The position numbers were made by a program, and so were the translations under genes. This document shows, piece after piece, positions 20,745-31,141 of a DNA stretch of 64,000 nt. This DNA comes from Myxococcota bacterium (GTDB taxonomy: Bacteria > Myxococcota_A > SURF-8), in NCBI GenBank assembly GCA_965140415.1, contig OZ223209.1, forward strand, positions 3,552,001 through 3,616,000, in the 5' to 3' direction. Below the pieces are notes generated by a model. The model was not told where the DNA came from and made no database searches. It was given only the letters and a program-made list of their open reading frames with translations. Position 1 is the first letter of the stretch; every line of letters starts with the position of its first letter.

Positions 20745-20984
20745 TCTGGTTCATTCGAGATTACTACTGTAATTGGAACACTTTTAACCTCTCAGAAGCA
20801 CAGAGGATTGTCAATGCTAATGCTGGGTGGCAAACATTTTCTCGTCCCTGCAGTTTTCGTTTCGCAGGCAATTGTCGGGCTTGATTTGCAGGCGGAACAA
20901 TGCTAGCTTTTTCTCGTCTCTTACACGATGCTTAACAGAGTTTCGTGAAACGATTTGCCACTCCGTTTAATTGGAGGAAACCTC

Positions 20985-23084
20985 ATGCTGATCGACAAAC
21001 ACCTGCCCTGGTTACTAATGCTCCTTCTCTCCTTCTCGATTGCCGCCTGTTCGACCGGTGGCGGCGATGACGACCCGGATGGCGATATCGACAGCGAGAC
21101 GCAAACGGAAACACCAACTCCCGAATGTCTGAAAGGTCAAACCGGCTGCAACGACACCTGGCGCACAATCTGTCAAGACGGGCAATTCGTCGCGATTGAA
21201 AATTGTGCAACAGAGGGCATGATCTGCCGCGACGGCTACTGCATCGAGCCGGATTCTTCCGATGGAGACGACGATTCTTTTGACTTAGAAGATGACACAG
21301 CCGAAATCGAACTCGCCGATGGCGATAGTGAGTCGGATTCTCTTGTAGATGGCGATCTTGACGTAGAAGAAGCCCCTGAAATTGAAGAGGAAGCAGATTT
21401 CATCATCGATGGCGATGCGGAACCCGATCTTCCGGTTCCGGATTGCCAGCCCGGTCCCTGCTGCGATAATGGTCAGTGGGTTGAAACAGGTCAGCCTTGT
21501 GTTTCGGGAGCAGACGAACTGGACTGCACACTGGACAGTTGCAACGAATTTCACCTTTGCGATCATATACTTGACGACGATGCCTGCCTGATTCAGGACG
21601 CCTGCTACGATTCACAAGCGCCTCATCCCACCAATTCTTGTTTGTACTGTAATCCGGCGATTGGTCAGACGACCTGGACCTTCGTGACCGACGGACAGGA
21701 CTGCGACGACCTGAATTCCGAAACTCAGAACGATCAGTGTAATAACGGTCAATGCCTGGGTGAAGGTTGTACTTGCTCCGGCGTCGATTTATGCTGCGAT
21801 GGTTGCCAACCACAGAACGAAAACGCCGCGTGCGAAGACACTTTCTATTGCACCATCGGCACAACATGTCAGTCGGGAGTTTGTACTGGTGGCAGCGAAC
21901 GCGATTGCTCCTCTGTCGTCACCAATCCCACTTGCCAGCAGGCAGCCTGTAACAATGCGCTTTCTCGCTGCGAAGCTCGTCCGGCAAACCAACAGGGCGA
22001 ATGCAACGACGACCTTGCCTGCACCCATACGGATATCTGCCTTGACGGTGCCTGTTACGGTACGCCTTACACGTGCAACGACAATAGCTCGTGTACAATC
22101 GATACATGCAACAGCGATGGAAGCTGCGATTATGATGATATTCCGAACGATTGCGGAGAACGGGAATGTGGTCCATCTACATCCGGCTGCTATTCCTGCG
22201 GCATCTGTGGCGATCAGCAGGAGTGCAACGAACTGGGCGAATGCATCGATTTGCCTGATGGTGACAGCACGGACGGAGACACCCCGGATGGCGATGCAAG
22301 TGACGGAGATGTAGCAGATGGAGACATGATCGACGGTGATGCACCAGATGGTGACATGGAGTTGTCTTTCGCAACATATCGCATCCACTATTACTCCGGC
22401 TGGACACAACCCTACCTCTATCACAGCATGGATGGCGATACGGGTTCGCCATCTATCTGGACTGCATTCCCTGGAGTAACAATGCAATCCGAGAGTACCT
22501 CCCTCTGGTGGATGGTTGATGTCGAAATCCCTGAACCTTACTCGCTTGTGTTTCTATTCAACGACGGAAACGGAACGAGCGTAGAAGATTCAAATGTGGA
22601 CTGGCATCATCCTTACGAATGCCCGACCTGCAACTTCGAAACGGAATCACTGGAAGTCTGGATCAAAGACGGCTTGATGACGGATTATCCCCCCGTGGAA
22701 CCGGACGGCGACCTCGATGTCGTCGAAATCGAACCGGAGCCCACTGGTAGCGACTACCGTGTCCATCTTTATTCGGGCTGGACGGAAGCCTATCTCTATC
22801 ACAGCTATGACGGAAACACCTCCCAAGATCCTTGGACGCCCTTCCCCGGTGTGAGCATGACCTTTGAAAATCGCGATCAATGGTGGGTAACGGATGTACA
22901 TCTCGAAGATGAAGCCGCCCTCGTTTTTGTATTCAATAATGGAGATGGCGTAAATGCCGCTGATCCAAACGTCCAGTGGCACCAACCCTATGGTTGCTCA
23001 AGCTGCAATTTCAGCACGACAGCAGCAGAAGTTTGGGTAAAAGATGGAATTCTGACGGAAACTGTCGCACCGGAGGGGTATTAG
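20985..23084 (+). CDS. Cys-rich DGD-repeat lipoprotein with two C-terminal starch-binding (CBM26-like) modules
   Basis: GGAGG RBS before ATG 20985; lipobox IAAC; CxDxxxCTxDxC repeats; two ~100-aa repeats (YSGW..YLYHS..W..FPGV.M..WW..VF.FNxG..EVW.KDG). Confidence 0.7.
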   Translation: MLIDKHLPWLLMLLLSFSIAACSTGGGDDDPDGDIDSETQTETPTPECLKGQTGCNDTWRTICQDGQFVAIENCATEGMICRDGYCIEPDSSDGDDDSFDLEDDTAEIELADGDSESDSLVDGDLDVEEAPEIEEEADFIIDGDAEPDLPVPDCQPGPCCDNGQWVETGQPCVSGADELDCTLDSCNEFHLCDHILDDDACLIQDACYDSQAPHPTNSCLYCNPAIGQTTWTFVTDGQDCDDLNSETQNDQCNNGQCLGEGCTCSGVDLCCDGCQPQNENAACEDTFYCTIGTTCQSGVCTGGSERDCSSVVTNPTCQQAACNNALSRCEARPANQQGECNDDLACTHTDICLDGACYGTPYTCNDNSSCTIDTCNSDGSCDYDDIPNDCGERECGPSTSGCYSCGICGDQQECNELGECIDLPDGDSTDGDTPDGDASDGDVADGDMIDGDAPDGDMELSFATYRIHYYSGWTQPYLYHSMDGDTGSPSIWTAFPGVTMQSESTSLWWMVDVEIPEPYSLVFLFNDGNGTSVEDSNVDWHHPYECPTCNFETESLEVWIKDGLMTDYPPVEPDGDLDVVEIEPEPTGSDYRVHLYSGWTEAYLYHSYDGNTSQDPWTPFPGVSMTFENRDQWWVTDVHLEDEAALVFVFNNGDGVNAADPNVQWHQPYGCSSCNFSTTAAEVWVKDGILTETVAPEGY

Positions 23085-23097
23085 CAAACCGTTGTAA

Positions 23098-24051
23098 TCA
23101 ATTCGATTTCAGCACTTTAAGTCGTTCGACCAACGTAGTTAGCCGTTCATCCGCCGCATGAGTGCTTTCAAGGATGTTCGGCTCCAGACGTTCCTGCAAC
23201 ACAGCGGTCCAGTCGATCGAAGGTGCTTGAATAAGCTCGTCAACAGCTTCTATCCGCATGACATTCCCAAGGGAATACTTTTTCTTATCTCCCTTGAACA
23301 TCTGTGTAATTACCAGATCGTTATTGTAAATCTCACCGTCCCAATCCACCACGAATTCATCTAGATGCAAAGGTTGTGAGTTTTGGCGGGATAGATTTAC
23401 CAGTTCCAGTTCGACATCTTTTTGCCAAGCGCGATCGAAAAGAGCCGCAACCTGCTGAAACGCAAGGGAAAGCGCTTCTAATTGAGAACTTGACCATAAA
23501 ACGTAATAAGCAGGAAGCAAATTGAAGCGACGAAATCCCTGCCGCAATAAGCTGCGCAACCGTTCCGGTAACAGATCTGCCGTTTCCGGAGGTATAACCA
23601 GATTGACGATCACCGGGCGAACGAAGCGCGCCAATCGGCGCGACCAGGCTTCGAACCAATCCAACATAACGCAGGCATTACTATCCGGCACACGATACGC
23701 TTTGCCGCCCTGTTGCATGCAATCCAAGCTGATGACCAGTTCGATTCGCTCATCCTGCTCCAAGGTATCCAGGATTTGTTCGGACAGGCGAACACCGTTT
23801 GTGGTTAAGCGAAATCGAATTCCAGCAGCAGAACTTTGCAAAAGGTTCTGCAAAGCTTGCCATTCACACAATGGCTCCGCACCGGAAAAGCGAACGCGCC
23901 CTTTGCCTTCCGGTAAAAAGATGGCCATTGCACGTTGTGCAATGGCCTCGCTCATTGAGTGATTGTCTTTTACGACGGGGCAGTAACTGCATCGCAAATC
24001 GCAATGAGTTCCCAGCACCAAAGAAAGCTTGGTCGCCCCATAAAGCTCCAT
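23098..24051 (-). CDS. Radical SAM protein, second maturase of the His-Xaa-Ser cluster
   Basis: CDLRCSYC (CxxxCxxC), FSGAEP, LTTNG, ISLD; starts 14 nt after the precursor stop. Confidence 0.85.
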   Translation of the reverse strand: MELYGATKLSLVLGTHCDLRCSYCPVVKDNHSMSEAIAQRAMAIFLPEGKGRVRFSGAEPLCEWQALQNLLQSSAAGIRFRLTTNGVRLSEQILDTLEQDERIELVISLDCMQQGGKAYRVPDSNACVMLDWFEAWSRRLARFVRPVIVNLVIPPETADLLPERLRSLLRQGFRRFNLLPAYYVLWSSSQLEALSLAFQQVAALFDRAWQKDVELELVNLSRQNSQPLHLDEFVVDWDGEIYNNDLVITQMFKGDKKKYSLGNVMRIEAVDELIQAPSIDWTAVLQERLEPNILESTHAADERLTTLVERLKVLKSN

Positions 24052-24065
24052 GTCGCTAAGTAGTG

Positions 24066-24470
24066 CTACCAGCTACCATGCGAACCATGGGAAGCATGGG
24101 AAGCATGCGAGGCATGCGATCCGTGGGAAGCGTGGGAAGCATGGGAACCATGAGATCCGTGTGACCCATGAGAACCATGAGATCCGTGCGATCCGTGTGA
24201 ACCATGCGAGCAATGCTGGGCTAAAAGTTGCTCTTCCCCGCTCAGATCATGCAATTGTCCATCGGCGACATCTACGAAATCGTGATGAACGTCGGCGTGA
24301 TCCACATGATCGTTGGCTTCTGCTTCCTCGGAACTAAGAGTGTTTCCCAAAAGCAGGAGAGTCGTGGAAACGCTCAACGCCTGTTTTTTGGTGATCTTGC
24401 CTTCTTCCCCCTGAAGGAACATATCCAGCTTTTTCTTCATCATGGGGATTTTTCGTTTGGCGGAGCTCAT
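24066..24470 (-). CDS. hxsA: His-Xaa-Ser repeat RiPP precursor (HxsA-like)
   Basis: 134 aa ending in 16 HxS triplets plus W; strong AAGGAGG RBS; sits between two radical SAM genes. Confidence 0.88.
   Translation of the reverse strand: MSSAKRKIPMMKKKLDMFLQGEEGKITKKQALSVSTTLLLLGNTLSSEEAEANDHVDHADVHHDFVDVADGQLHDLSGEEQLLAQHCSHGSHGSHGSHGSHGSHGSHGSHASHASHGSHASHASHASHGSHGSW
24072..24215 (-). repeat. 16 x 9-nt tandem repeat encoding HCS, 10 HGS and 5 HAS
   Basis: Counted directly from the DNA; units differ mainly at synonymous positions. Confidence 0.95.
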
Positions 24471-24483
24471 ACATCAACCTCCT

Positions 24484-25965
24484 TTAATAAGGGTCGCATG
24501 CATCGACTTGTCGAATTTTCAGGGTTATCCAGCGACCGAAAATCTCGTTGATTTTCGGATCGTTTTTAGCAATATATTCAAATAAATGATCGAACATCGC
24601 CATAGCAACTTTGCACCGGTCGTTGTTCGGCATTTGACCGAAAATGTCTCCCTGTGTCGAGTAATTATAGATCGGACATACTCCACAGTAGGGCATGTAG
24701 GCGCACTCGGAACACAGCGGCAAACCATCTTGAATGGAAGCCATAACCAGCGAACGCACAGGCTCCGATTCCATCAGTTGTTGATAGGAATCTGTTTGAA
24801 CGTCACCCATCAGGAAAAGATCGTCGCCCATGTGGGCCATCATACGGCCTTCATCGCAGGTAAATACCTGGCCGTTATAATTGTAAGCAACTTGACCGAT
24901 ACCGGCACCGCAAGGAGAGCGCTGCTCCATATAGTTCGGATCCCGATCGGTCAGAATCTTGGTCAGATGAATCGAAGCTGCACGTTCGATCATCTCGACA
25001 CCATTCAGATTCAATTCGATGATGTAGTCAAAGGCTTTTTTGTAAAAGTCGATGAATTCATCGGCGGAATAACCTATCTTGTTCCAGGTTTTCTTGACGA
25101 AACCAAAGGGGTTCAACGACCGGAAATGAATCGATTTCAACCCTAGATCCACGTATTCGTCGATGATTTCCTTCCAGAGTGGCAGAGACTGGCGAGTGGT
25201 CGTCATCAGCGCATCGACATGGAAAGTGTCCGGATTAAAGCCACGCTTTAAGTATTCCACCTGGAATTTTCGAATCCAGTTCACGGTCTGATCGTAACTG
25301 GAATCGGCGGTGCAGATTCGATTGTGCTCGTGCAGATCCCTAGGACCATCCAGCGAAGTACACATGTAGACTTCGTGCTCGATCAGGTAAGCCATCTTCT
25401 CTTCGTCCATTAAACTGAGATTCGAGACGAGAGTAAACGCCAGATCCTTATTCGCCTGCTTATTCTTCTCCGTGGCATATTCCACCACGAACTTCAATAC
25501 ATCCCAGTTCGCCAGCGGCTCACCGCCCTGGAATTCGATATTGATCGCTTCATTGGTCGTTTCGAAAATCAGATCCACAACCTTACGTGCCGTTTCAATG
25601 GACATGTCAAATTCATGCTTGCCCATCGGCTCCCGACTTGCATGGCAATACTGGCAGGTGTAGTTGCAACGCAGGGTAATGATCATGATGTGCAACGTGG
25701 GACCGGCATCCAGATAATCGTAACGATATCGGTAGATTTCCGACATCCGGTTGACCATATCCCGATGCCGCATAAAATCCTGCCTGAGCAGGCGCTGATA
25801 CAATGCACTCCCTGATTCACTCGTACCGGAGAGCATCTGGTCGAATTCATCGTGAGTAAGCAGCAGAAAACGACCGATATCATTGGTAATCAATACTTGT
25901 TCACCAAGATTTCGGAAGCGGAAGAATCCCAGATTCGGGTTCAGTTTTTTAGGATTTACTACCAT
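24484..25965 (-). CDS. hxsB: His-Xaa-Ser system radical SAM/SPASM maturase HxsB
   Basis: GFFRFR..VLITNDIGRF N-terminus, LHIMIITLRCNYTCQYCHAS, IEFQGGEPL, RSPCGAGIGQVAYNYNGQVFTCDEGRM, CSECAYMPYCGVCP. Confidence 0.9.
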   Translation of the reverse strand: MVVNPKKLNPNLGFFRFRNLGEQVLITNDIGRFLLLTHDEFDQMLSGTSESGSALYQRLLRQDFMRHRDMVNRMSEIYRYRYDYLDAGPTLHIMIITLRCNYTCQYCHASREPMGKHEFDMSIETARKVVDLIFETTNEAINIEFQGGEPLANWDVLKFVVEYATEKNKQANKDLAFTLVSNLSLMDEEKMAYLIEHEVYMCTSLDGPRDLHEHNRICTADSSYDQTVNWIRKFQVEYLKRGFNPDTFHVDALMTTTRQSLPLWKEIIDEYVDLGLKSIHFRSLNPFGFVKKTWNKIGYSADEFIDFYKKAFDYIIELNLNGVEMIERAASIHLTKILTDRDPNYMEQRSPCGAGIGQVAYNYNGQVFTCDEGRMMAHMGDDLFLMGDVQTDSYQQLMESEPVRSLVMASIQDGLPLCSECAYMPYCGVCPIYNYSTQGDIFGQMPNNDRCKVAMAMFDHLFEYIAKNDPKINEIFGRWITLKIRQVDACDPY

Positions 25966-26174
25966 GACTTCTTCCTCGCAATCGTTGCATAAAGTGCATA
26001 ATTACCGAATTCATCGAGGATCGAAGCCTGCACGTCTTGATCTACCTGACTGAACTCAACCACATAATGGTTGCCGTCCAGCACCATGCTTGTTTCACAC
26101 AAATGATCGAAAGCCTTCACCGTATCCGAGATTCCAGCTTTACTGTAGATCTTCTTGTTTAAACGAAGCTCCAT
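25959..26174 (-). CDS. hxsD: HxsD-like small protein
   Basis: 71 aa with KKIYSKAGI..AF and ILDEFGNYAL; overlaps the hxsB start by 7 nt. Size and position match HxsD. Confidence 0.75.
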   Translation of the reverse strand: MELRLNKKIYSKAGISDTVKAFDHLCETSMVLDGNHYVVEFSQVDQDVQASILDEFGNYALYATIARKKSW

Positions 26175-26251: not shown

Positions 26252-29200
26252 TCAGGGAGTCGAAGCAACGCCATTTGAAACCTGCAACTCATACGTTCCA
26301 CACGTTACCGTAGAACCGGAACGATATACTTTCACATAGAAAGTAAAGTTCTGCTCTTCGCAATCATTGACGCCAGTTGCACTGCTTGCAGGAGCATTAC
26401 AAGGGCATTGTCCCCGGCCCCAACTCGGGTCAGAGACGGTGGTCGGTGGCCACTGCGAATCCGTAGCGAAATTGTAGTTCGTGACACCACGCGCAACGCC
26501 TGGCGTTCCCGTACCGTCGCATACATCCGCGCTGTACTGGGAAGGACATCCTCCACGATAGACGTCAAAAGCGAACTGACCATTGGGATTATTCGTCAAC
26601 TTGACTTCCGCGTTGAATTCGTCACAACGATTCGCCCCGCTCTCAGGACCATCGATTGCCATAAATGTGAACCAGTCCACATCCGACTCCGGCGCAATTG
26701 TACCGGAAACCACCGCCAATTGCCCGTTATTATCCGTCAAGCGGTAGGGCTCGGATTGAGCGGCGTTATTACAGGTATTGCCTTGACCGTCCTGGTCGTT
26801 CTGATCTTCCAGGCATTCGCAGCCATCATCGTATTCGCCATTGAGATCATGGTAATAGGTCGAACACGAACTGATTTTACATTCCCCTTGATCACAAATA
26901 GGTGTTCCGTTGGCGACCGTACAAACGACACCACAACCACCACAGTTGTTGATGTCATCGCAATCCGTACAGAAATCCTCATCCCGGACACCATCGCAGT
27001 CATTATCCAGGTTGTCACAAATTTCCGGAGAACCATCATACTCGGACCCAAAAAGATCGGTCGAACAGCGCGAAGAACTGGAAGAAGCACATTCAATCAC
27101 GCCCGGGCCACACTCACCGACACCGTCGCAGTTATTGCCAACATTGAAATCTTCGTCGGTGCTTCCATCACAATCGTTATCTAAACTGTCACAGCTCTCC
27201 GACGTGCCACCGTACTGCGAGCCACCGTAATCAGTGGAGCAACGATTGGCCGACAGGTTCTTACATTCGTAGATACCGCTACCACATTCACCTTGTCCAA
27301 CACACGGCAAACCAATGTAATAGTCTTCATCGGTCTGACCGTCACAGTCATTATCTAAACTATCGCAACGCTCCGACGTTCCACCGTATTGCGAACCACC
27401 GAAATCGGTTGAACAACGCCATGAATTCACGTCGGCACATTCTTTGACACCGAGACCACAGACGCCCTGGCCCACACAAGGTAAACCAACATCCCAGTTT
27501 TCATCCGTCTCACCATCGCAGTCATTATCCAGGTTGTCGCAAAGTTCTGCCGTACCTTGATAGTTGGAACCTCCAGAATTGACGGAACAAATACGTCCCT
27601 GTCCACCCGGCGCACATTCCCATTCACCGGTTCCGCATTCGCCGACACCGAGGCATTCCGAACCAATGAAGAAGTCTTCATCGGTCTCGCCATCGCAGTC
27701 ATTGTCCAAGCCATCACAGCTTTCCGGCACATATACGTAATCATCACCGTTGCGATCGGTGGAACAGATCGTGGTCAAATAGTTCTGAGGATCGCATTGC
27801 TTGACACCGATTCCACACTGGCCGACACCATTGCACTGTACACCAATATCGAAATCTTCATCGGTATTGCCATCGCAGTCGTCGTCTTCGTTGTTGCATA
27901 CCTCAACGCCACCGGTGAAGGAATCTCCACCTGGATCGGCTGAGCATTGAATCCACAACTCAGGAGCAACGATTTCCTGATGTGCATTGCCGTTCAAGCA
28001 CTGGAAATAGCCGTTATACTGGCTGCCGTTACCACACCCACCAGTACCGGTACAGGGATTACCCAAACACCCCACACAAGTACCAGGCGGTTCACCGGAC
28101 CCGTAAATAAAGAATTCTCCATTATCTACGGTACCATCGCAATCGTTGTCATAACCATCACAGATTTCCGGTCCACCGTTGTCATTGGCGTTACAGTAGC
28201 GGGAATATGGATCGTTGGGCATGCATCGCCATTCGCCCAGTCCGCATTCACCTTCCCCAAGGCAAATTTCGCCGATACTGAAATCTTCGTCCACTTCTCC
28301 ATCACAATCGTTATCCAGTCCGTCACACAAATCCGGTTGCGTCTGCGGAGCAGATCCACCCGGTTCCGTAGAACAAATCACACTGAACGGATCCAGACCA
28401 GAACATTCCCATTCGCCCCAACCGCATTCACCGGTTCCGTTACAAGGACGACCGACCAGGAAGTCTTCATCGGTCAAACCGTCACAATCGTTGTCGAAGC
28501 CGTCGCAGATCTCATAAGGCACTTGGTTTTCAGGTTGCGGACGGTGACAATAATAACCACAAGGCTGGGCAGGATCGATTGTGTACCAATCCTCATCGCA
28601 GTTCACACCCTCAGCCTTGAAGGCGACATACATGATCGAGTTATTGTTGTCGTTGGATTCCACCCGCAACACCAATTCCTGTTCGAAATCGTAATCATGG
28701 GGACAGAACGTAACCGTAAACTCGATTTTATCTTCGTTGTGATCATTGTAGTTTCTCAGATATGCCGGCATCTGAGGCCACCCTTCGATCTCCCAGTTTT
28801 CCGGAGGACCGGTAGTACGGTAGATCGAGTAACCATAGACTTCTAAAGTTCCTACACCATCGTTGGTGATTGTGACCAAATAGGGATCAGAGCAAGAGTT
28901 GATGAAAATCTCACCCAGATCACAAGGATTGGATTCAACACACAACGGGGTAACTTCGATACTCGGATTCACACCCAATCCGTACAAATCGAACTCGGCA
29001 TAGGAGTGATCATCTCTGAAGTCATTGGTGTTGATCCTGAAACTACCGGTATCTTCACCAGGCCAACCTACCGGACTGTAGGAAAGATCGATATTGGCAA
29101 AGCCTCCGGGTTGAATATCCGGAATCAATTGAGGGAAGAAAGAAAACTCGGTCGAACTACCCGGTCCCAACGTGAGGTTGGACACCTTACACTTGTAGGA

Positions 29201-31141
29201 GCCTTCATTGACGACTCTCAAGCGCAACACCTTGCTCGTTTCCAAATTCACTTCTTCAAATGAAATCAGGTCTTCATCGAAAATTTCTCGGGAACTTCCA
29301 TCGCTGGGATCGACCAGATTAAAAGTACACCAAGGCCAGACTCCCTCTCCACGCAGGGGAATCTCGTATTCGGGATAGGTCGGGTTATTGGTTGTAATGG
29401 TCAGTTTCCCGACGTGAACATACCCTTCCTCTTGGTAAGTCGGCTTGAAAAACATCAGAATTTCCCTTGGGTCATCCTGAAGGCTCAAGATCAGCGGCAA
29501 TTGCGTAACCACCTCTGGATCGACATAGAAAGCATTGGGATCTTCTGAAGGATTCTCCACATTTAAGCTCGTAATGATCAGGTCACCGGTACCACGATTC
29601 TGTACGGTAAAGCCTTCCTCACCCACATCGTTTAGTAGAACCTCTTCGAAATTAAGTGTTGTCGGTTCCACTACGATTACACTTTGAACACCAATACACT
29701 GAACCGGCAACAATTGAATCGGCTCGTTGACATCATTACTACGTACTTCAATGACACCAGCTAGCGGAACGACGCTTTCCGGTTTGCAGAACACACGGAA
29801 AGTTGCGTAATCATTGGGTGCGATAGGATGATTCTCCCCGATGCCACGGGTATCGATCCATAAAAGGTTGGGATCGGGAACGGGGTTTGTCCACTGAATG
29901 CTTTCAATTCGCACGGTTCCACCGCAACTGCTTTCCAGTTCGACTTCCGTGTTCACTTCCTGATTGATTGTCACATCTCCGAAATCCACAGGATTGGGAT
30001 CGATAGTCAAACAGGGAACGACACCGGTACCGGTAAGCGTGAAGTTGACCGGATTTTTGGGTTCGTACCGGCTGTGATCGGCGTTATGATTGATTTTGAT
30101 GACGGCATCGTGAACCCCTTGGCTCGCCGGTTTGTAATAAACCAGGAATGCCATGGAATCACCGGGATTGATGTGTGTCAGTTGTGGAAGGTTTTCCTGC
30201 AATCTGAAGTGCGCGCTCTGTGCAGGTTCCAAGGTAATCGGTCCCACTGTCAACGCCTTATTGGAATCCAGTTCCTGACCAGTCGGAACGACATTCGTTA
30301 CTGTAATTTGAAGAGGAATTTCCGTAGCTCCGACCTCGACCACGCCGAAATCGTACTCAGGAGGATCCGGAGCAATTACGATTTCCGTTTCACCCTTGTA
30401 ATCGCTAGTTAGTTGGATTTCGGTCGTATAACCAATGCAAGGATCGTTTGTAACCAATTCAATAGTCCCAAGATTACGACCGGGGTCACTTGGCGATAGC
30501 AGAATGTTAAAGGTTTCAAACTGTCCCGGAGCGATATCGATCGGAAGACTGGGAGCCCCTCCTTGCCAACTGTAATCGGTATCGGAAGCTTGAGAAATAA
30601 CCATATCAAGAATCTGTAGGGTTTTGAACCCATCGTTCTGGATATTGAACGACTGCACACCAGAATCGTTGATCATCACGGCACCGAAGGACAGACTCGG
30701 AGGATCGATGCTGATGCAAGGATTGTTGTTGCAGTCGCAAGTAGTGGTGTCGCCATCAACGATGTCATCAGAATCGCTATCACCATCCGGGAACATCGGA
30801 GAGCATACAAAATTGTCATCGCAGTACTCATTGGTACCACACTGCACATCCGCGCAGCATTCTGCACTTTCCGGACATGCTGTTCCGTCGTTAACGAGAC
30901 ATACCCCTCCAACACAAATGTACCCCACATCACAATCCGGATCCGTACTACAGAGCGGATTGATGGAATCTCCATCTGTGCTGGATTCGCGATCATCATC
31001 TCCGTTGTCAATCACACTGCTGCCGTTTCCGTCACAAGCCGTAACGAAAAGCAGAGCGAAAAGCATGAGAATGATGAAAAAGGCACCACGCCGCTGCAAT
31101 GAGTTTCGTGTTCTCATTCCGAGTACTCCTAAACTGACCAT
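26252..31141 (-). CDS. Giant surface lipoprotein with about six Ig-like (choice-of-anchor D/ASH-like) domains and nine CDxxDNDCDGxxDE repeats (start may be ATG 31117)
   Basis: Lipobox VTAC; repeated xFG/ExV...(T/S)ND modules; nine ExCxxxDNDCDGxxDE-type units mostly about 59 aa apart; C-terminal DVDWF (PPC-like) module. Confidence 0.8.
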   Translation of the reverse strand: MVSLGVLGMRTRNSLQRRGAFFIILMLFALLFVTACDGNGSSVIDNGDDDRESSTDGDSINPLCSTDPDCDVGYICVGGVCLVNDGTACPESAECCADVQCGTNEYCDDNFVCSPMFPDGDSDSDDIVDGDTTTCDCNNNPCISIDPPSLSFGAVMINDSGVQSFNIQNDGFKTLQILDMVISQASDTDYSWQGGAPSLPIDIAPGQFETFNILLSPSDPGRNLGTIELVTNDPCIGYTTEIQLTSDYKGETEIVIAPDPPEYDFGVVEVGATEIPLQITVTNVVPTGQELDSNKALTVGPITLEPAQSAHFRLQENLPQLTHINPGDSMAFLVYYKPASQGVHDAVIKINHNADHSRYEPKNPVNFTLTGTGVVPCLTIDPNPVDFGDVTINQEVNTEVELESSCGGTVRIESIQWTNPVPDPNLLWIDTRGIGENHPIAPNDYATFRVFCKPESVVPLAGVIEVRSNDVNEPIQLLPVQCIGVQSVIVVEPTTLNFEEVLLNDVGEEGFTVQNRGTGDLIITSLNVENPSEDPNAFYVDPEVVTQLPLILSLQDDPREILMFFKPTYQEEGYVHVGKLTITTNNPTYPEYEIPLRGEGVWPWCTFNLVDPSDGSSREIFDEDLISFEEVNLETSKVLRLRVVNEGSYKCKVSNLTLGPGSSTEFSFFPQLIPDIQPGGFANIDLSYSPVGWPGEDTGSFRINTNDFRDDHSYAEFDLYGLGVNPSIEVTPLCVESNPCDLGEIFINSCSDPYLVTITNDGVGTLEVYGYSIYRTTGPPENWEIEGWPQMPAYLRNYNDHNEDKIEFTVTFCPHDYDFEQELVLRVESNDNNNSIMYVAFKAEGVNCDEDWYTIDPAQPCGYYCHRPQPENQVPYEICDGFDNDCDGLTDEDFLVGRPCNGTGECGWGEWECSGLDPFSVICSTEPGGSAPQTQPDLCDGLDNDCDGEVDEDFSIGEICLGEGECGLGEWRCMPNDPYSRYCNANDNGGPEICDGYDNDCDGTVDNGEFFIYGSGEPPGTCVGCLGNPCTGTGGCGNGSQYNGYFQCLNGNAHQEIVAPELWIQCSADPGGDSFTGGVEVCNNEDDDCDGNTDEDFDIGVQCNGVGQCGIGVKQCDPQNYLTTICSTDRNGDDYVYVPESCDGLDNDCDGETDEDFFIGSECLGVGECGTGEWECAPGGQGRICSVNSGGSNYQGTAELCDNLDNDCDGETDENWDVGLPCVGQGVCGLGVKECADVNSWRCSTDFGGSQYGGTSERCDSLDNDCDGQTDEDYYIGLPCVGQGECGSGIYECKNLSANRCSTDYGGSQYGGTSESCDSLDNDCDGSTDEDFNVGNNCDGVGECGPGVIECASSSSSRCSTDLFGSEYDGSPEICDNLDNDCDGVRDEDFCTDCDDINNCGGCGVVCTVANGTPICDQGECKISSCSTYYHDLNGEYDDGCECLEDQNDQDGQGNTCNNAAQSEPYRLTDNNGQLAVVSGTIAPESDVDWFTFMAIDGPESGANRCDEFNAEVKLTNNPNGQFAFDVYRGGCPSQYSADVCDGTGTPGVARGVTNYNFATDSQWPPTTVSDPSWGRGQCPCNAPASSATGVNDCEEQNFTFYVKVYRSGSTVTCGTYELQVSNGVASTP

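What the first reader, a model, noticed from the sequence alone, without database searches (positions are those of the whole stretch)
24066..24320. Precursor core: 16 uninterrupted HxS triplets, terminal Trp and a second H/F-x-D motif block
Seen: the core is HCS-(HGS)7-(HAS)2-HGS-(HAS)3-(HGS)2-W. The 9-nt units vary at synonymous positions (Ser TCG/TCA/TCT/TCC/AGC, His CAT/CAC), which suggests selection on the peptide rather than recent slippage. Upstream lies a different triplet block, HVD-HAD-V-HHD-FVD. Inference: two motif classes (H-x-S and aromatic-x-D) could be separate substrates for the two radical SAM enzymes. A His every third residue could also form a regular metal-binding or fibril-forming array.
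Basis: partly seen in the sequence, partly recalled or inferred. Interest (0 to 1): 0.8.

Follow-up and report, generated by a model that had tools for sequence, protein, structure and literature searches.

The report
His-Xaa-Ser repeat peptide precursor (HxsA4)
This small gene encodes a peptide ending in 16 His-x-Ser units and belongs to a named but little-studied family (HxsA4) matured by radical SAM enzymes; a related system blocks phage DNA entry in E. coli, but this version has a different second enzyme and no known role.

Summary
The minus-strand ORF 24066..24470 (134 aa) ends in HCS-(HGS)7-(HAS)2-HGS-(HAS)3-(HGS)2-W. The 9-nt units differ mostly at synonymous sites.

It is not a new kind of peptide. 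It passes NCBI's curated model for the His-Xaa-Ser repeat protein HxsA4. It sits in a four-gene operon: HxsD-like, HxsB, HxsA4 and a second radical SAM enzyme. The canonical HxsD-B-C-A system was shown in 2026 to block phage DNA entry in E. coli.

This locus is a variant:
- The second enzyme is neither HxsC nor HxsC4 and has no auxiliary-cluster cysteines.
- The peptide has no peptidoglycan-binding domain and no basic residues.
- A second, unlinked copy, also with 16 units, lies 2.6 Mb away.

The HxD block is a non-conserved acidic spacer. The Cys of the first unit was kept in 22 of 24 complete precursors and the terminal Trp in 23 of 24. Sixteen units is the commonest count (11 of 22 aligned).

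The idea of two motif classes for two enzymes is not supported. The chemistry and the role (metal binding or phage defence) remain untested. The scan has met related Hxs loci in other genomes.

The parts
25959..26174 (-). hxsD-like gene, 71 aa. It is the first gene of the operon and overlaps the hxsB start by 7 nt (ATGGTAG).
   Evidence: NF038315 'HxsD-like protein' scores 70.5 bits (cut-off 41). Canonical HxsD TIGR03976 scores only 13.7 (cut-off 50). The overlap is read. The AlphaFold2 model has pLDDT 95.1 with a beta-alpha-beta-beta-alpha fold. No PDB match reaches E<=0.001. The gene lies next to hxsB in the window and in 12 other relatives' loci: L034, L038, L042, L043, L044, L053-L057, L059, L062. 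A 13th, L076, was found.
24484..25965 (-). hxsB, a 493-aa radical SAM/SPASM maturase.
   Evidence: TIGR03978 scores 559 bits (cut-off 370), covering profile positions 3-466 of 466. Pfam finds Radical_SAM and SPASM. C100/C104/C107 and several C-terminal Cys are invariant in 12 homologues.
24478..24484 (-). Shine-Dalgarno sequence AAGGAGG, 7 nt before the precursor's ATG. It abuts the end of hxsB, sharing one base with its stop codon.
   Evidence: Read directly from the sequence. By contrast, the 14 nt between the precursor's stop and the next gene's ATG show no such site.
24381..24470 (-). Precursor residues 1-30: the basic, conserved N-terminal leader (K-I-P..KKK..FL.GEEGKITKKQ).
   Evidence: P9, L19 and E23 are invariant in 22 precursors. 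The HxsA3 model also matches residues 8-58 at 42.1 bits. Charge is +5.5 at pH 7.
24336..24380 (-). Precursor residues 31-45 (ALSVSTTLLLLGNTL): a short hydrophobic, signal-peptide-like segment followed by small-x-small sites (AEA).
   Evidence: The Kyte-Doolittle 11-residue maximum is 2.0 at residue 31. A segment scoring 1.5 or more is present in 15 of 22 aligned precursors and absent in 7. Export is inferred, not shown.
24216..24335 (-). Precursor residues 46-85: the acidic spacer.
   Evidence: Charge is -12.1 at pH 7. Length and sequence are not conserved.
24069..24215 (-). The core: 16 H-x-S units (24072..24215, first unit HCS) plus the C-terminal Trp (24069..24071).
   Evidence: All His and Ser positions, the first-unit Cys and the final Trp are conserved in relatives.
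23098..24051 (-). Second radical SAM gene (called 'rSAM2' here), 317 aa. It starts 14 nt after the precursor's stop.
   Evidence: Pfam finds only Radical_SAM. HxsC TIGR03977 scores 25.9 bits (cut-off 267.9). The locus is absent from the 30 HxsC4 (NF038332) matches in the genome. Only the CxxxCxxC cysteines are conserved across 24 homologues. The AlphaFold2 model has pLDDT 89.7. Its best PDB matches are CteB 5why (E 2.3e-15, TMq 0.72), anSME, ChlB, SkfB and SuiB. It is adjacent to hxsB or the precursor in 10 relatives' loci: L034, L036, L042, L044, L053, L054, L055, L056, L057, L064.
26252..31141 (-). Context only, possibly linked: a 1629-aa secreted-type protein ending 77 nt upstream of hxsD-like.
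   Evidence: It carries choice-of-anchor D (NF012200, 4 stretches) and Cu-binding_MopE motifs (PF11617, 8 stretches). A homologue lies next to hxsD-like/hxsB in L053, L054, L055, L057 and L059, but not in L056 or L062. All of these are close kin, so inherited gene order is not excluded.

Best explanation
The ORF is the structural gene of an HxsA4-type His-Xaa-Ser system. This is a ribosomal peptide matured by radical SAM enzymes encoded beside it.

Shown by family models and gene order:
- The operon is hxsD-like, hxsB, hxsA4, then a second radical SAM gene.
- HxsB is a full-length member of the HxsB family.

Inferred from comparison with relatives:
- Residues 1-30 are a leader recognised by the maturation proteins.
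- Residues 31-52 resemble an export signal.
- Residues 46-85, with the HxD block, are a disposable acidic spacer.
- Residues 86-134 are the core.

Inferred from the E. coli genetics of the canonical system: HxsB, the second radical SAM enzyme and the HxsD-like protein jointly modify the core covalently, and this is coupled to N-terminal processing. His C2 to residue-3 C-beta cross-links within H-x-x motifs are chemically precedented. However, the only Hxs product analysed so far carried a single +8 Da change in one unit.

The mature product would be a roughly 49-residue array with His at every third residue, bounded by an invariant Cys and an invariant C-terminal Trp.

On its role I am least sure. 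I rate binding of divalent metal ions in the cell envelope at about 0.35, a block to phage DNA entry like E. coli HxsA at about 0.25, and something else for the remainder.
For: Family membership:
- HxsA4 NF038313: 63.8 bits (cut-off 55). HxsB TIGR03978: 559 bits (cut-off 370).
- HxsD-like NF038315: 70.5 bits (cut-off 41).

Operon signals:
- Genes are tightly packed, and hxsD-like overlaps hxsB by 7 nt.
- The precursor has a strong AAGGAGG site.

Conservation of the module:
- hxsD-like/hxsB/(hxsA4)/rSAM2 recurs in relatives.
- HxsB passes its cut-off in 25 of 61 genomes searched.
- rSAM2 matches at E<=1e-15 in 15 of 61. All 10 genomes of the window's order have both.
- HxsA4 passes its cut-off in 21 of 61.

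Conservation in the precursor:
- His and Ser of every unit, P9/L19/E23, the first-unit Cys (20 of 22) and the final Trp (22 of 22) are kept.
- 27 synonymous against 6 non-synonymous changes separate the two copies in this genome.
- Canonical HxsA shares the junction motif before the array: NNLYAGH-RS, compared with GQLHAGH-CS in HxsA4 relatives.

Enzymes:
- The rSAM2 model resembles peptide-modifying radical SAM enzymes (CteB, anSME, ChlB, SkfB, SuiB).

Literature:
- In E. coli, HxsB, HxsC and HxsD are each needed for HxsA cleavage. A +8 Da change maps to one HxS unit (PMC13128918, sections read).
- His1-C2 to X3-C-beta cross-links occur on HTK and HAA motifs, at -2 Da for the HTK link (PMC11499958, passages).

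For the metal leaning:
- The core is nearly uncharged at pH 7 (+1.1) and holds 16 His, no Lys and no Arg.
Against: - No HxsA4-type system has been studied experimentally, as far as my searches show. Every chemical step is therefore inferred.
- The second enzyme is not HxsC (25.9 bits against 267.9; BLASTP E 2.2). hhalign aligns only 131 columns of the generic core. It is not HxsC4 either. The E. coli division of labour may therefore not transfer.
- The hydrophobic segment is short and is missing in 7 of 22 relatives, so export is uncertain.
- In E. coli only one of five units was found modified. That argues against one cross-link per unit.
- For the metal reading there is only composition plus weak context. 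The context is a MopE-motif neighbour at both copies in this genome and an Nramp gene beside one relative's orphan precursor. No MopE neighbour was found in the 10 relatives' orphan loci checked.
- The terminal-Trp and HCS counts come from sequences found with the HxsA4 model. That model may itself encode these features.
Confidence: 0.7

Rival explanations
1. It works like E. coli HxsA. The matured peptide is exported and blocks entry of phage DNA at the cell envelope, so the operon is an antiphage defence system.
For: - It shares HxsB (559 bits), a HxsD-like protein, an HxS array, and the junction motif before the array.
- Experiments on the canonical system show broad antiphage activity. It depends on HxsB, HxsC and HxsD and on every HxS unit (PMC13128918).
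Against: - The features tied to the proposed E. coli mechanism are missing. There is no peptidoglycan-binding domain (134 aa; no such Pfam hit).
- Position x is Gly, Ala, Ser or Cys instead of basic residues: G 308, C 20, A 19, S 11 of 358 units.
- Core charge is +1.1 at pH 7, beside a -12 spacer.
- The locus lies among housekeeping genes (PNPase, S15, TruB, SUF, pyruvate:ferredoxin oxidoreductase, TCA cycle). No defence or mobile genes are nearby.
- PADLOC gives only generic viperin-type radical SAM hits.
- HxsB and rSAM2 are found in all 10 genomes of the order. This looks vertically inherited rather than patchy.
- The authors place 99.7% of canonical systems in Pseudomonadota.
Confidence: 0.25
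2. H-x-S units and aromatic/His-x-Asp triplets are two substrate classes, one for each radical SAM enzyme.
For: This copy does have four such triplets upstream of the array, and there are two radical SAM genes.
Against: - The block is absent or unrecognisable in most relatives: 0 triplets in 12 of 22, and no residues in that region in 9 of 22.
- Zero-triplet cases include the paralogue in the same genome, which must use the same enzymes.
- Some loci with the same second enzyme have precursors with spacers of only 8-17 residues and no such triplets (L034, L036, L042).
Confidence: 0.05
3. Only the two invariant end caps are modified: the Cys-bearing first unit and the last unit with Trp. The 14 or so units between them are an unmodified functional spacer.
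For: - Cys (20 of 22) and Trp (22 of 22) are the most conserved non-repeat residues.
- In E. coli only one unit, the last, was found modified.
- The curated families nearest to HxsB, after its own, form Cys thioethers: PapB 130 bits, SCIFF 120, QhpD 110.
- The best fold match of rSAM2 is the thioether synthase CteB.
Against: - Canonical HxsA has no Cys at the start of its array yet uses HxsB.
- Two relatives have HAS as the first unit.
- One complete precursor (L039) lacks the Trp.
- Strict conservation of every His and Ser also fits modification in each unit.
Confidence: 0.15
4. It is an unmodified His-rich or collagen-like (Gly every third residue) structural or storage protein. The neighbouring radical SAM genes are unrelated to it.
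For: There are weak hits to Collagen PF01391 (19.1 bits, cut-off 27.2) and to SclB (20.3 bits, cut-off 325). These reflect the G-x-y periodicity of (HGS)n.
Against: - Both hits fall below their cut-offs.
- The peptide passes the HxsA4 model.
- It lies between hxsB and rSAM2 here and in G001, G004, G015, G021, G036 and G051.
- There is no Pro, and 6 of its 16 units lack Gly.
Confidence: 0.04

Closest known systems
HxsA4 family (NCBIfam NF038313, 'His-Xaa-Ser repeat protein HxsA4'), with the companion model NF038315 'HxsD-like protein'
   Same: The peptide passes the curated cut-off (63.8 against 55). The upstream small gene passes NF038315 (70.5 against 41). The leader, the HCS first unit, the HGS-rich array and the terminal Trp match relatives found with the model.
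   Different: The curated partner model for this type, HxsC4 (NF038332), is not matched by the second enzyme here, nor by any locus of this genome above cut-off (best 168.9 against 500). I found no paper describing HxsA4.
Canonical HXS antiphage system HxsD-HxsB-HxsC-HxsA (Li et al., Nat Commun 2026, PMC13128918). It was first predicted by Haft and Basu 2011, which I saw only as reference 22 of that paper.
   Same: An HxsB orthologue, a small HxsD-type partner, a second radical SAM enzyme, an effector with tandem H-x-S units, and the shared L-(H/Y)-A-G-H junction before the array.
   Different: - Gene order is D-B-A-rSAM, not D-B-C-A.
- HxsC is replaced by an unrelated radical SAM family without auxiliary-cluster Cys.
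- HxsD (TIGR03976) and HxsA (TIGR03979) fall below their cut-offs.
- There are 16 neutral units instead of five basic ones, and no peptidoglycan-binding domain.
- It is chromosomal, among housekeeping genes and outside Pseudomonadota. The only named homologue of rSAM2 is from a Myxococcota MAG.
Expanded multi-radical-SAM Hxs clusters noted earlier by this scan in Omnitrophota, Patescibacteria and Elusimicrobia (unchecked AI notes)
   Same: An HGS-rich HxsA4-type peptide with HxsB and HxsD-like genes.
   Different: Those notes describe 10-17 radical SAM genes plus a prepilin-peptidase-like protease. This locus has only two radical SAM genes and no protease. I did not examine those loci.
Triceptides: three-residue cyclophanes made by radical SAM/SPASM enzymes such as HtkB and HaaB (PMC11499958, abstract and passages)
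   Same: The formal motif is aromatic-x-x with His at position 1, and the maturase is a radical SAM/SPASM enzyme. These enzymes make His-C2 to residue-3 C-beta links.
   Different: HxsB scores far below the cut-offs of the cyclophane-forming families: YhhB 56.2 against 445, GrrM/OscB 56.1 against 310. The one Hxs modification measured was +8 Da, not -2 Da.
Bufferins: signal-peptide-bearing ribosomal peptide metallophores (PMC11626156, search listing and start of abstract only)
   Same: A relatively large precursor with a signal-like segment and a possible metal-chelating role in the envelope.
   Different: According to that abstract, bufferins are modified on Cys by MNIO enzymes. No MNIO gene was seen in this operon. 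The resemblance is one of logic only.

Membership tests
HxsA4 (NF038313) | Score at or above the curated cut-off of the family model | tested here: met
   63.8 bits against a cut-off of 55. The genome search gives 54.1 bits for the best stretch and 64 with its neighbours in the frame.
HxsA4 (NF038313) | Encoded next to an HxsB-family radical SAM/SPASM maturase | tested here: met
   hxsB ends 13 nt upstream of the precursor's ATG. TIGR03978 scores 559 bits against a cut-off of 370.
Canonical HXS system | HxsC (TIGR03977) as the second radical SAM enzyme | tested here: not met
   25.9 bits against a cut-off of 267.9. BLASTP against a canonical HxsC gives E 2.2. hhalign aligns only 131 core columns. 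No HxsC passes the cut-off in any of 61 related genomes.
Canonical HXS system | [quoted passage not shown] | tested here: not met
   TIGR03979 scores 17.8 bits against a cut-off of 121.65. There is no PG-binding Pfam hit. There are no Lys or Arg in the spacer or core.
Canonical HXS system | HxsD (TIGR03976) | tested here: not met
   13.7 bits against a cut-off of 50, but the related model NF038315 is met. BLASTP against a canonical HxsD finds no alignment.
Canonical HXS system | Gene order hxsD-hxsB-hxsC-hxsA | tested here: not met
   The order here is hxsD-like, hxsB, hxsA4, rSAM2. The canonical order was seen in NC_009349.1 and is reported for 99.6% of systems.
Canonical HXS system | Protection against phage by blocking DNA entry | not testable with these tools
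   This needs phage challenge assays.
HxsC4 (NF038332) | Second enzyme scores at or above the cut-off (500 bits) | tested here: not met
   The model is not among the 25 families listed for P0002 (41 matched at E<=0.01). The rSAM2 locus is not among the 30 matches of the model in this genome, whose best score is 168.9 bits.
Triceptides (three-residue cyclophane peptides) | Aromatic-to-C-beta cross-link on an aromatic-x-x motif, made by a triceptide synthase | not testable with these tools
   The motif pattern fits. HxsB scores below the cut-offs of the cyclophane-forming models. The cross-link itself needs MS and NMR.
Collagen-like repeat proteins | Pfam Collagen (PF01391) at or above the gathering score | tested here: not met
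   19.1 bits against 27.2.
Sec-exported precursor | N-terminal signal peptide | tested here: inconclusive
   A short hydrophobic stretch at residues 31-45 is followed by AEA, but it comes after a 30-residue basic extension. It is present in 15 of 22 relatives. No signal-peptide predictor was available.

The most novel reading that the evidence does not exclude
The HxsA4 product may be a length-counted rod, not a string of equivalent modification sites. In this reading each of the two radical SAM enzymes modifies one invariant cap. One cap is the Cys-bearing first unit; the other is the last unit with the C-terminal Trp. The (Gly-Ser-His)n stretch between them is held at 16-17 units. It would adopt a three-residues-per-turn extended helix, putting all His on one face. 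By my own estimate of 3.1 Angstrom per residue, that ladder would be about 15 nm long. It could act in the envelope as a metal-binding ruler or wire. HxsB would then be the constant enzyme of all Hxs systems, and the second enzyme would be swapped to suit the effector's end chemistry.
Probability: 0.1. Interest if true: 0.8.

Novelty: new variant of a known kind. Interest (0 to 1): 0.45.

Why it matters
The His-Xaa-Ser system gained a function only in 2026, and only for the five-repeat, peptidoglycan-anchored, basic effector of Pseudomonadota. This locus shows a compact four-gene version outside that phylum. It keeps HxsB and a HxsD-type partner but exchanges both the effector type and the second radical SAM enzyme. 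It is also inherited across a whole order rather than scattered like a defence island.

If its chemistry were solved, that would show what HxsB does to H-x-S units in general, which the E. coli study could not establish. It would also show whether His-x-Ser arrays serve purposes other than phage defence.

The practical gain from this check is a sharper target list. The HxD block can be dropped. The first-unit Cys, the terminal Trp and the unit count are the features worth mutating.

Tried and rejected
- The search for related loci with the second enzyme in genome contigs returned no confirmed relative. I used the genome search instead and did not use the second scan.
- No RNA holder was listed for the operon.
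- Complex prediction (HxsB + rSAM2 + HxsD-like as partner) was never accepted because the queue stayed full. There is therefore no result on which enzyme the HxsD-like protein binds.
- The promoter and terminator scan found no more sites than in shuffles: 3 against 4.3, and 5 against 4.4.
- The fold search with the HxsD-like model gave no PDB match at E<=0.001. The model's beta-alpha-beta-beta-alpha order does not look like a PqqD-type leader-binding domain, as I recall that fold.
- Pfam gave nothing for the HxsD-like protein even at E<=10.
- I looked for a conserved protease, transporter, defence gene or metal gene near the cluster or near orphan precursors in relatives. None recurred.
- A home-made regex for the MopE motif was too strict: it missed the Pfam-positive neighbour of the paralogue. 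I do not rely on it.
- Haft and Basu 2011 is not held.
- Earlier-findings look-ups by place and by sequence returned nothing.
- Rows left out of alignment A1 were L043, L044 and L049 (runs of N inside the array) and L039 (complete, but ending ...GSDA without Trp). L073 was found later (HCS first unit, ends in Trp).
Full report
**What is there.** The finding lies on the minus strand. ORF 24066..24470 encodes 134 residues. The block HVD-HAD-V-HHD-FVD is at residues 55-67.

The 16 nine-base units comprise 12 different sequences. Five Ser codons and both His codons are used. No exact repeat is longer than 17 nt. Tandem Repeats Finder gives 78% matches.

A six-frame scan of the whole 5.98-Mb genome (GC 52.4%) finds only one other run of four or more H-x-S units. 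It is a 134-residue paralogue 2.6 Mb away that also begins HCS, has 16 units and ends in Trp. Across the 49 array codons the two copies show 27 synonymous and 6 non-synonymous differences. The observation, and the inference of selection on the peptide, are confirmed.

**What it is.** The peptide passes NCBI's curated model for the His-Xaa-Ser repeat protein HxsA4 (NF038313, 63.8 bits, cut-off 55). The gene upstream is a full-length HxsB radical SAM/SPASM maturase (TIGR03978, 559 bits, cut-off 370). Before that lies a 71-residue ORF that passes the 'HxsD-like protein' model (NF038315, 70.5 bits, cut-off 41) and overlaps the hxsB start by 7 nt. A 317-residue radical SAM gene starts 14 nt after the precursor's stop. 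The precursor has a consensus AAGGAGG ribosome-binding site, and the downstream enzyme gene has none visible.

**What is known.** The His-Xaa-Ser system was predicted in silico by Haft and Basu in 2011. I could not read that paper and know it only as reference 22 of the paper below.

Li et al. (Nat Commun 2026, PMC13128918; Results sections 8-10 and the Discussion read) showed that the canonical E. coli HxsD-B-C-A operon protects against many phages by blocking DNA entry. Their main findings:
- HxsB, HxsC and HxsD are all needed for its N-terminal cleavage.
- A +8 Da change maps to the SHRSS motif of the last unit.
- HxsC binds HxsD.
- 99.7% of the systems lie in Pseudomonadota.

That paper does not mention HxsA2, HxsA3 or HxsA4. 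My two full-text searches found no other functional study.

**How this locus differs.**
- The second enzyme is not HxsC. It scores 25.9 bits against a cut-off of 267.9. BLASTP against the HxsC of an annotated canonical operon (NC_009349.1) gives E 2.2. A profile comparison aligns only 131 columns of the generic radical SAM core.
- It is not NCBI's HxsC4 either. That model's 30 matches in this genome do not include this locus, and none passes the cut-off (best 168.9 against 500).
- Across 24 homologues only the CxxxCxxC cysteines are conserved, so an auxiliary cluster is unlikely.
- Its AlphaFold2 model (pLDDT 89.7) is nevertheless closest to peptide-modifying enzymes: CteB, anSME, ChlB, SkfB and SuiB.
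- A profile search of 1.84 billion representatives finds 648 relatives at E<=1e-30. Many are proteins of 600-1300 residues with two to four copies of the domain.
- The peptide has no peptidoglycan-binding domain and no Lys or Arg after residue 30. Its core carries about +1 charge at pH 7, next to a spacer of -12.

**Relatives.** Among the window's genome and 60 related genomes (61 in all):
- HxsA4 passes its cut-off in 21.
- HxsB passes its cut-off in 25.
- The second enzyme matches at E<=1e-15 in 15.
- Canonical HxsC passes its cut-off in none.

All ten genomes of the window's order have both HxsB and the second enzyme. The arrangements vary:
- The precursor lies between the two enzyme genes here and in G001, G004, G015, G021, G036 and G051.
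- In G002, G003, G005 and G008 the two enzyme genes are adjacent and the precursor lies elsewhere.
- In G006, G007 and G009 HxsB and the second enzyme are unlinked.

Where they are split, the HxsD-like gene stays with hxsB (L059, L062). In L059 a transposase sits where the missing genes would be.

In other families of the phylum, HxsB is paired with a different radical SAM enzyme. It resembles HxsC4 at 78-164 bits, all below the cut-off. HxsB is therefore the constant component and its partner varies.

I aligned 22 complete precursors.
- Invariant: the His and Ser of the units, P9, L19 and E23 of the leader, and the final Trp.
- The first unit is HCS in 20 of 22 and HAS in the other two.
- Position x is Gly 308, Cys 20, Ala 19 and Ser 11 out of 358 units.
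- Unit counts are 16 in 11 sequences and 17 in 5.
- The region holding the HxD block is gappy, and 9 of 22 have no residues there.
- His/aromatic-x-Asp triplets number 4 here and 0 in 12 of 22, including the paralogue.
- The spacer is 8-42 residues long, acidic, and free of Lys and Arg in 20 of 22.

I left out three ORFs with runs of N in the array (L043, L044, L049). I also left out L039, which is complete but ends ...GSDA without Trp. L073, found later, has HCS and Trp. Over all 24 complete sequences, Trp is kept in 23 and HCS in 22.

These sequences were found with the HxsA4 model, so the counts are partly circular. In the wider protein database, 118 of the best 120 hits carry arrays of four or more H-x-x units. 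The last residue is Trp in 50, Tyr in 17, Phe in 6 and Cys in 8.

Canonical HxsA shares the junction before the array: NNLYAGH-RS, compared with GQLHAGH-CS in HxsA4 relatives. This is a plausible common recognition site for HxsB.

**How it most likely works.**
- Shown: family membership and operon structure.
- Inferred from conservation: a basic leader (residues 1-30), a short hydrophobic signal-like segment (present in 15 of 22), a disposable acidic spacer, and the core.
- Inferred from the E. coli work: joint action of the two radical SAM enzymes and the small protein, coupled to N-terminal cleavage.

The chemistry is open. His-C2 to residue-3 C-beta cross-links on H-x-x motifs are precedented (PMC11499958). 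The single E. coli measurement, however, was +8 Da in one unit.

**Function.** The defence reading rests on homology to the E. coli system. Against it are the missing anchor and basic residues, the housekeeping neighbourhood with no defence or mobile genes, the lack of specific PADLOC hits, and presence in every genome of the order searched.

The metal reading rests on 16 regularly spaced His in a nearly neutral peptide, plus weak context. A 1629-residue secreted-type protein with eight MopE 'putative metal-binding' motifs ends 77 nt upstream. It keeps that position in five of seven assessable relatives. The paralogue lies 1.4 kb from another of the roughly 16 MopE-motif genes in this genome. 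One relative's orphan precursor is followed by an Nramp transporter gene. However, none of ten relatives' orphan loci has a MopE neighbour.

I lean slightly to metal binding (0.35) over defence (0.25). Neither was tested.

**Verdict.** The peptide is a member of a curated family, in a variant cassette that I did not find described in print. The scan's own earlier notes report related, mostly much larger Hxs clusters in other phyla (unchecked).

The conserved Cys, the Trp and the unit count are the features to pursue.

Noticed in passing
window 23923-23947 (minus strand): A strong terminator-like hairpin (11 pairs, 7 G-C) followed by a T run. It lies about 120 nt after the precursor's stop, inside the 5' part of the second radical SAM gene. 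It could attenuate read-through so that the precursor transcript outnumbers the enzyme transcript. The scan as a whole found no more such sites than in shuffles.
   Followed up: no
G000:C1:963747-964148 (outside the window; locus L002 1438-1842, L077 7745-8149): A second, unlinked HxsA4 gene: 134 aa, GTG start, 16 units, HCS first, Trp last. No radical SAM gene is nearby. Its neighbours include DprA, topoisomerase I, a GidA-like gene and an 814-aa MopE-motif protein 1.4 kb away.
   Followed up: partly
window 26252-31141 (minus strand): A 1629-aa protein with four choice-of-anchor D domains and eight MopE-type Cys/Asp-rich motifs. It keeps its place upstream of hxsD-like/hxsB in five related genomes. 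The genome holds about 16 genes with this motif.
   Followed up: partly
window 23098-24051 (minus strand): The database copy of the second radical SAM protein from this genome is 285 aa (P0125, 100% identical over 90% of the query). That gene call would start after the CxxxCxxC motif at residues 17-24. Homologues align from residue 7-8, so the 317-aa start looks right.
   Followed up: partly
G000:C1:2054842-2057613, 4676433-4677957, 4263274-4264764, 5774047-5776045 and others: The genome holds at least 30 loci resembling the HxsC4 radical SAM model, all below its cut-off. Several sit in tandem arrays or in open frames of 600-1250 aa. Their substrates are unknown.
   Followed up: no
L059 3097-3973 (G006): In one relative an IS4/5-type transposase lies directly downstream of hxsB, where the precursor and the second radical SAM gene lie in other genomes. 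Both of those genes are elsewhere in that genome.
   Followed up: no
L051 6466-7809 (G004); L033 2515-4509 and L035 6456-9266: An orphan HxsA4 gene in G004 is followed within about 60 nt by an Nramp-family metal transporter gene and then a multihaem cytochrome c. In G038 and G017 an L,D-transpeptidase gene with a peptidoglycan-binding domain lies within about 1.5 kb and 160 nt, respectively, of the orphan precursor.
   Followed up: no
window 20955-23084 (plus strand): A 709-aa Asp- and Cys-rich protein with a lipoprotein-like N-terminus and two CBM25/CBM26 starch-binding modules. It converges on the end of the operon.
   Followed up: no
L042 7332-9418 and L044 7014-8087: In two distant relatives the same four-gene core is followed by one or two more radical SAM genes that resemble HxsC4 (81-87 bits). 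These look like intermediates towards the large multi-enzyme clusters.
   Followed up: no
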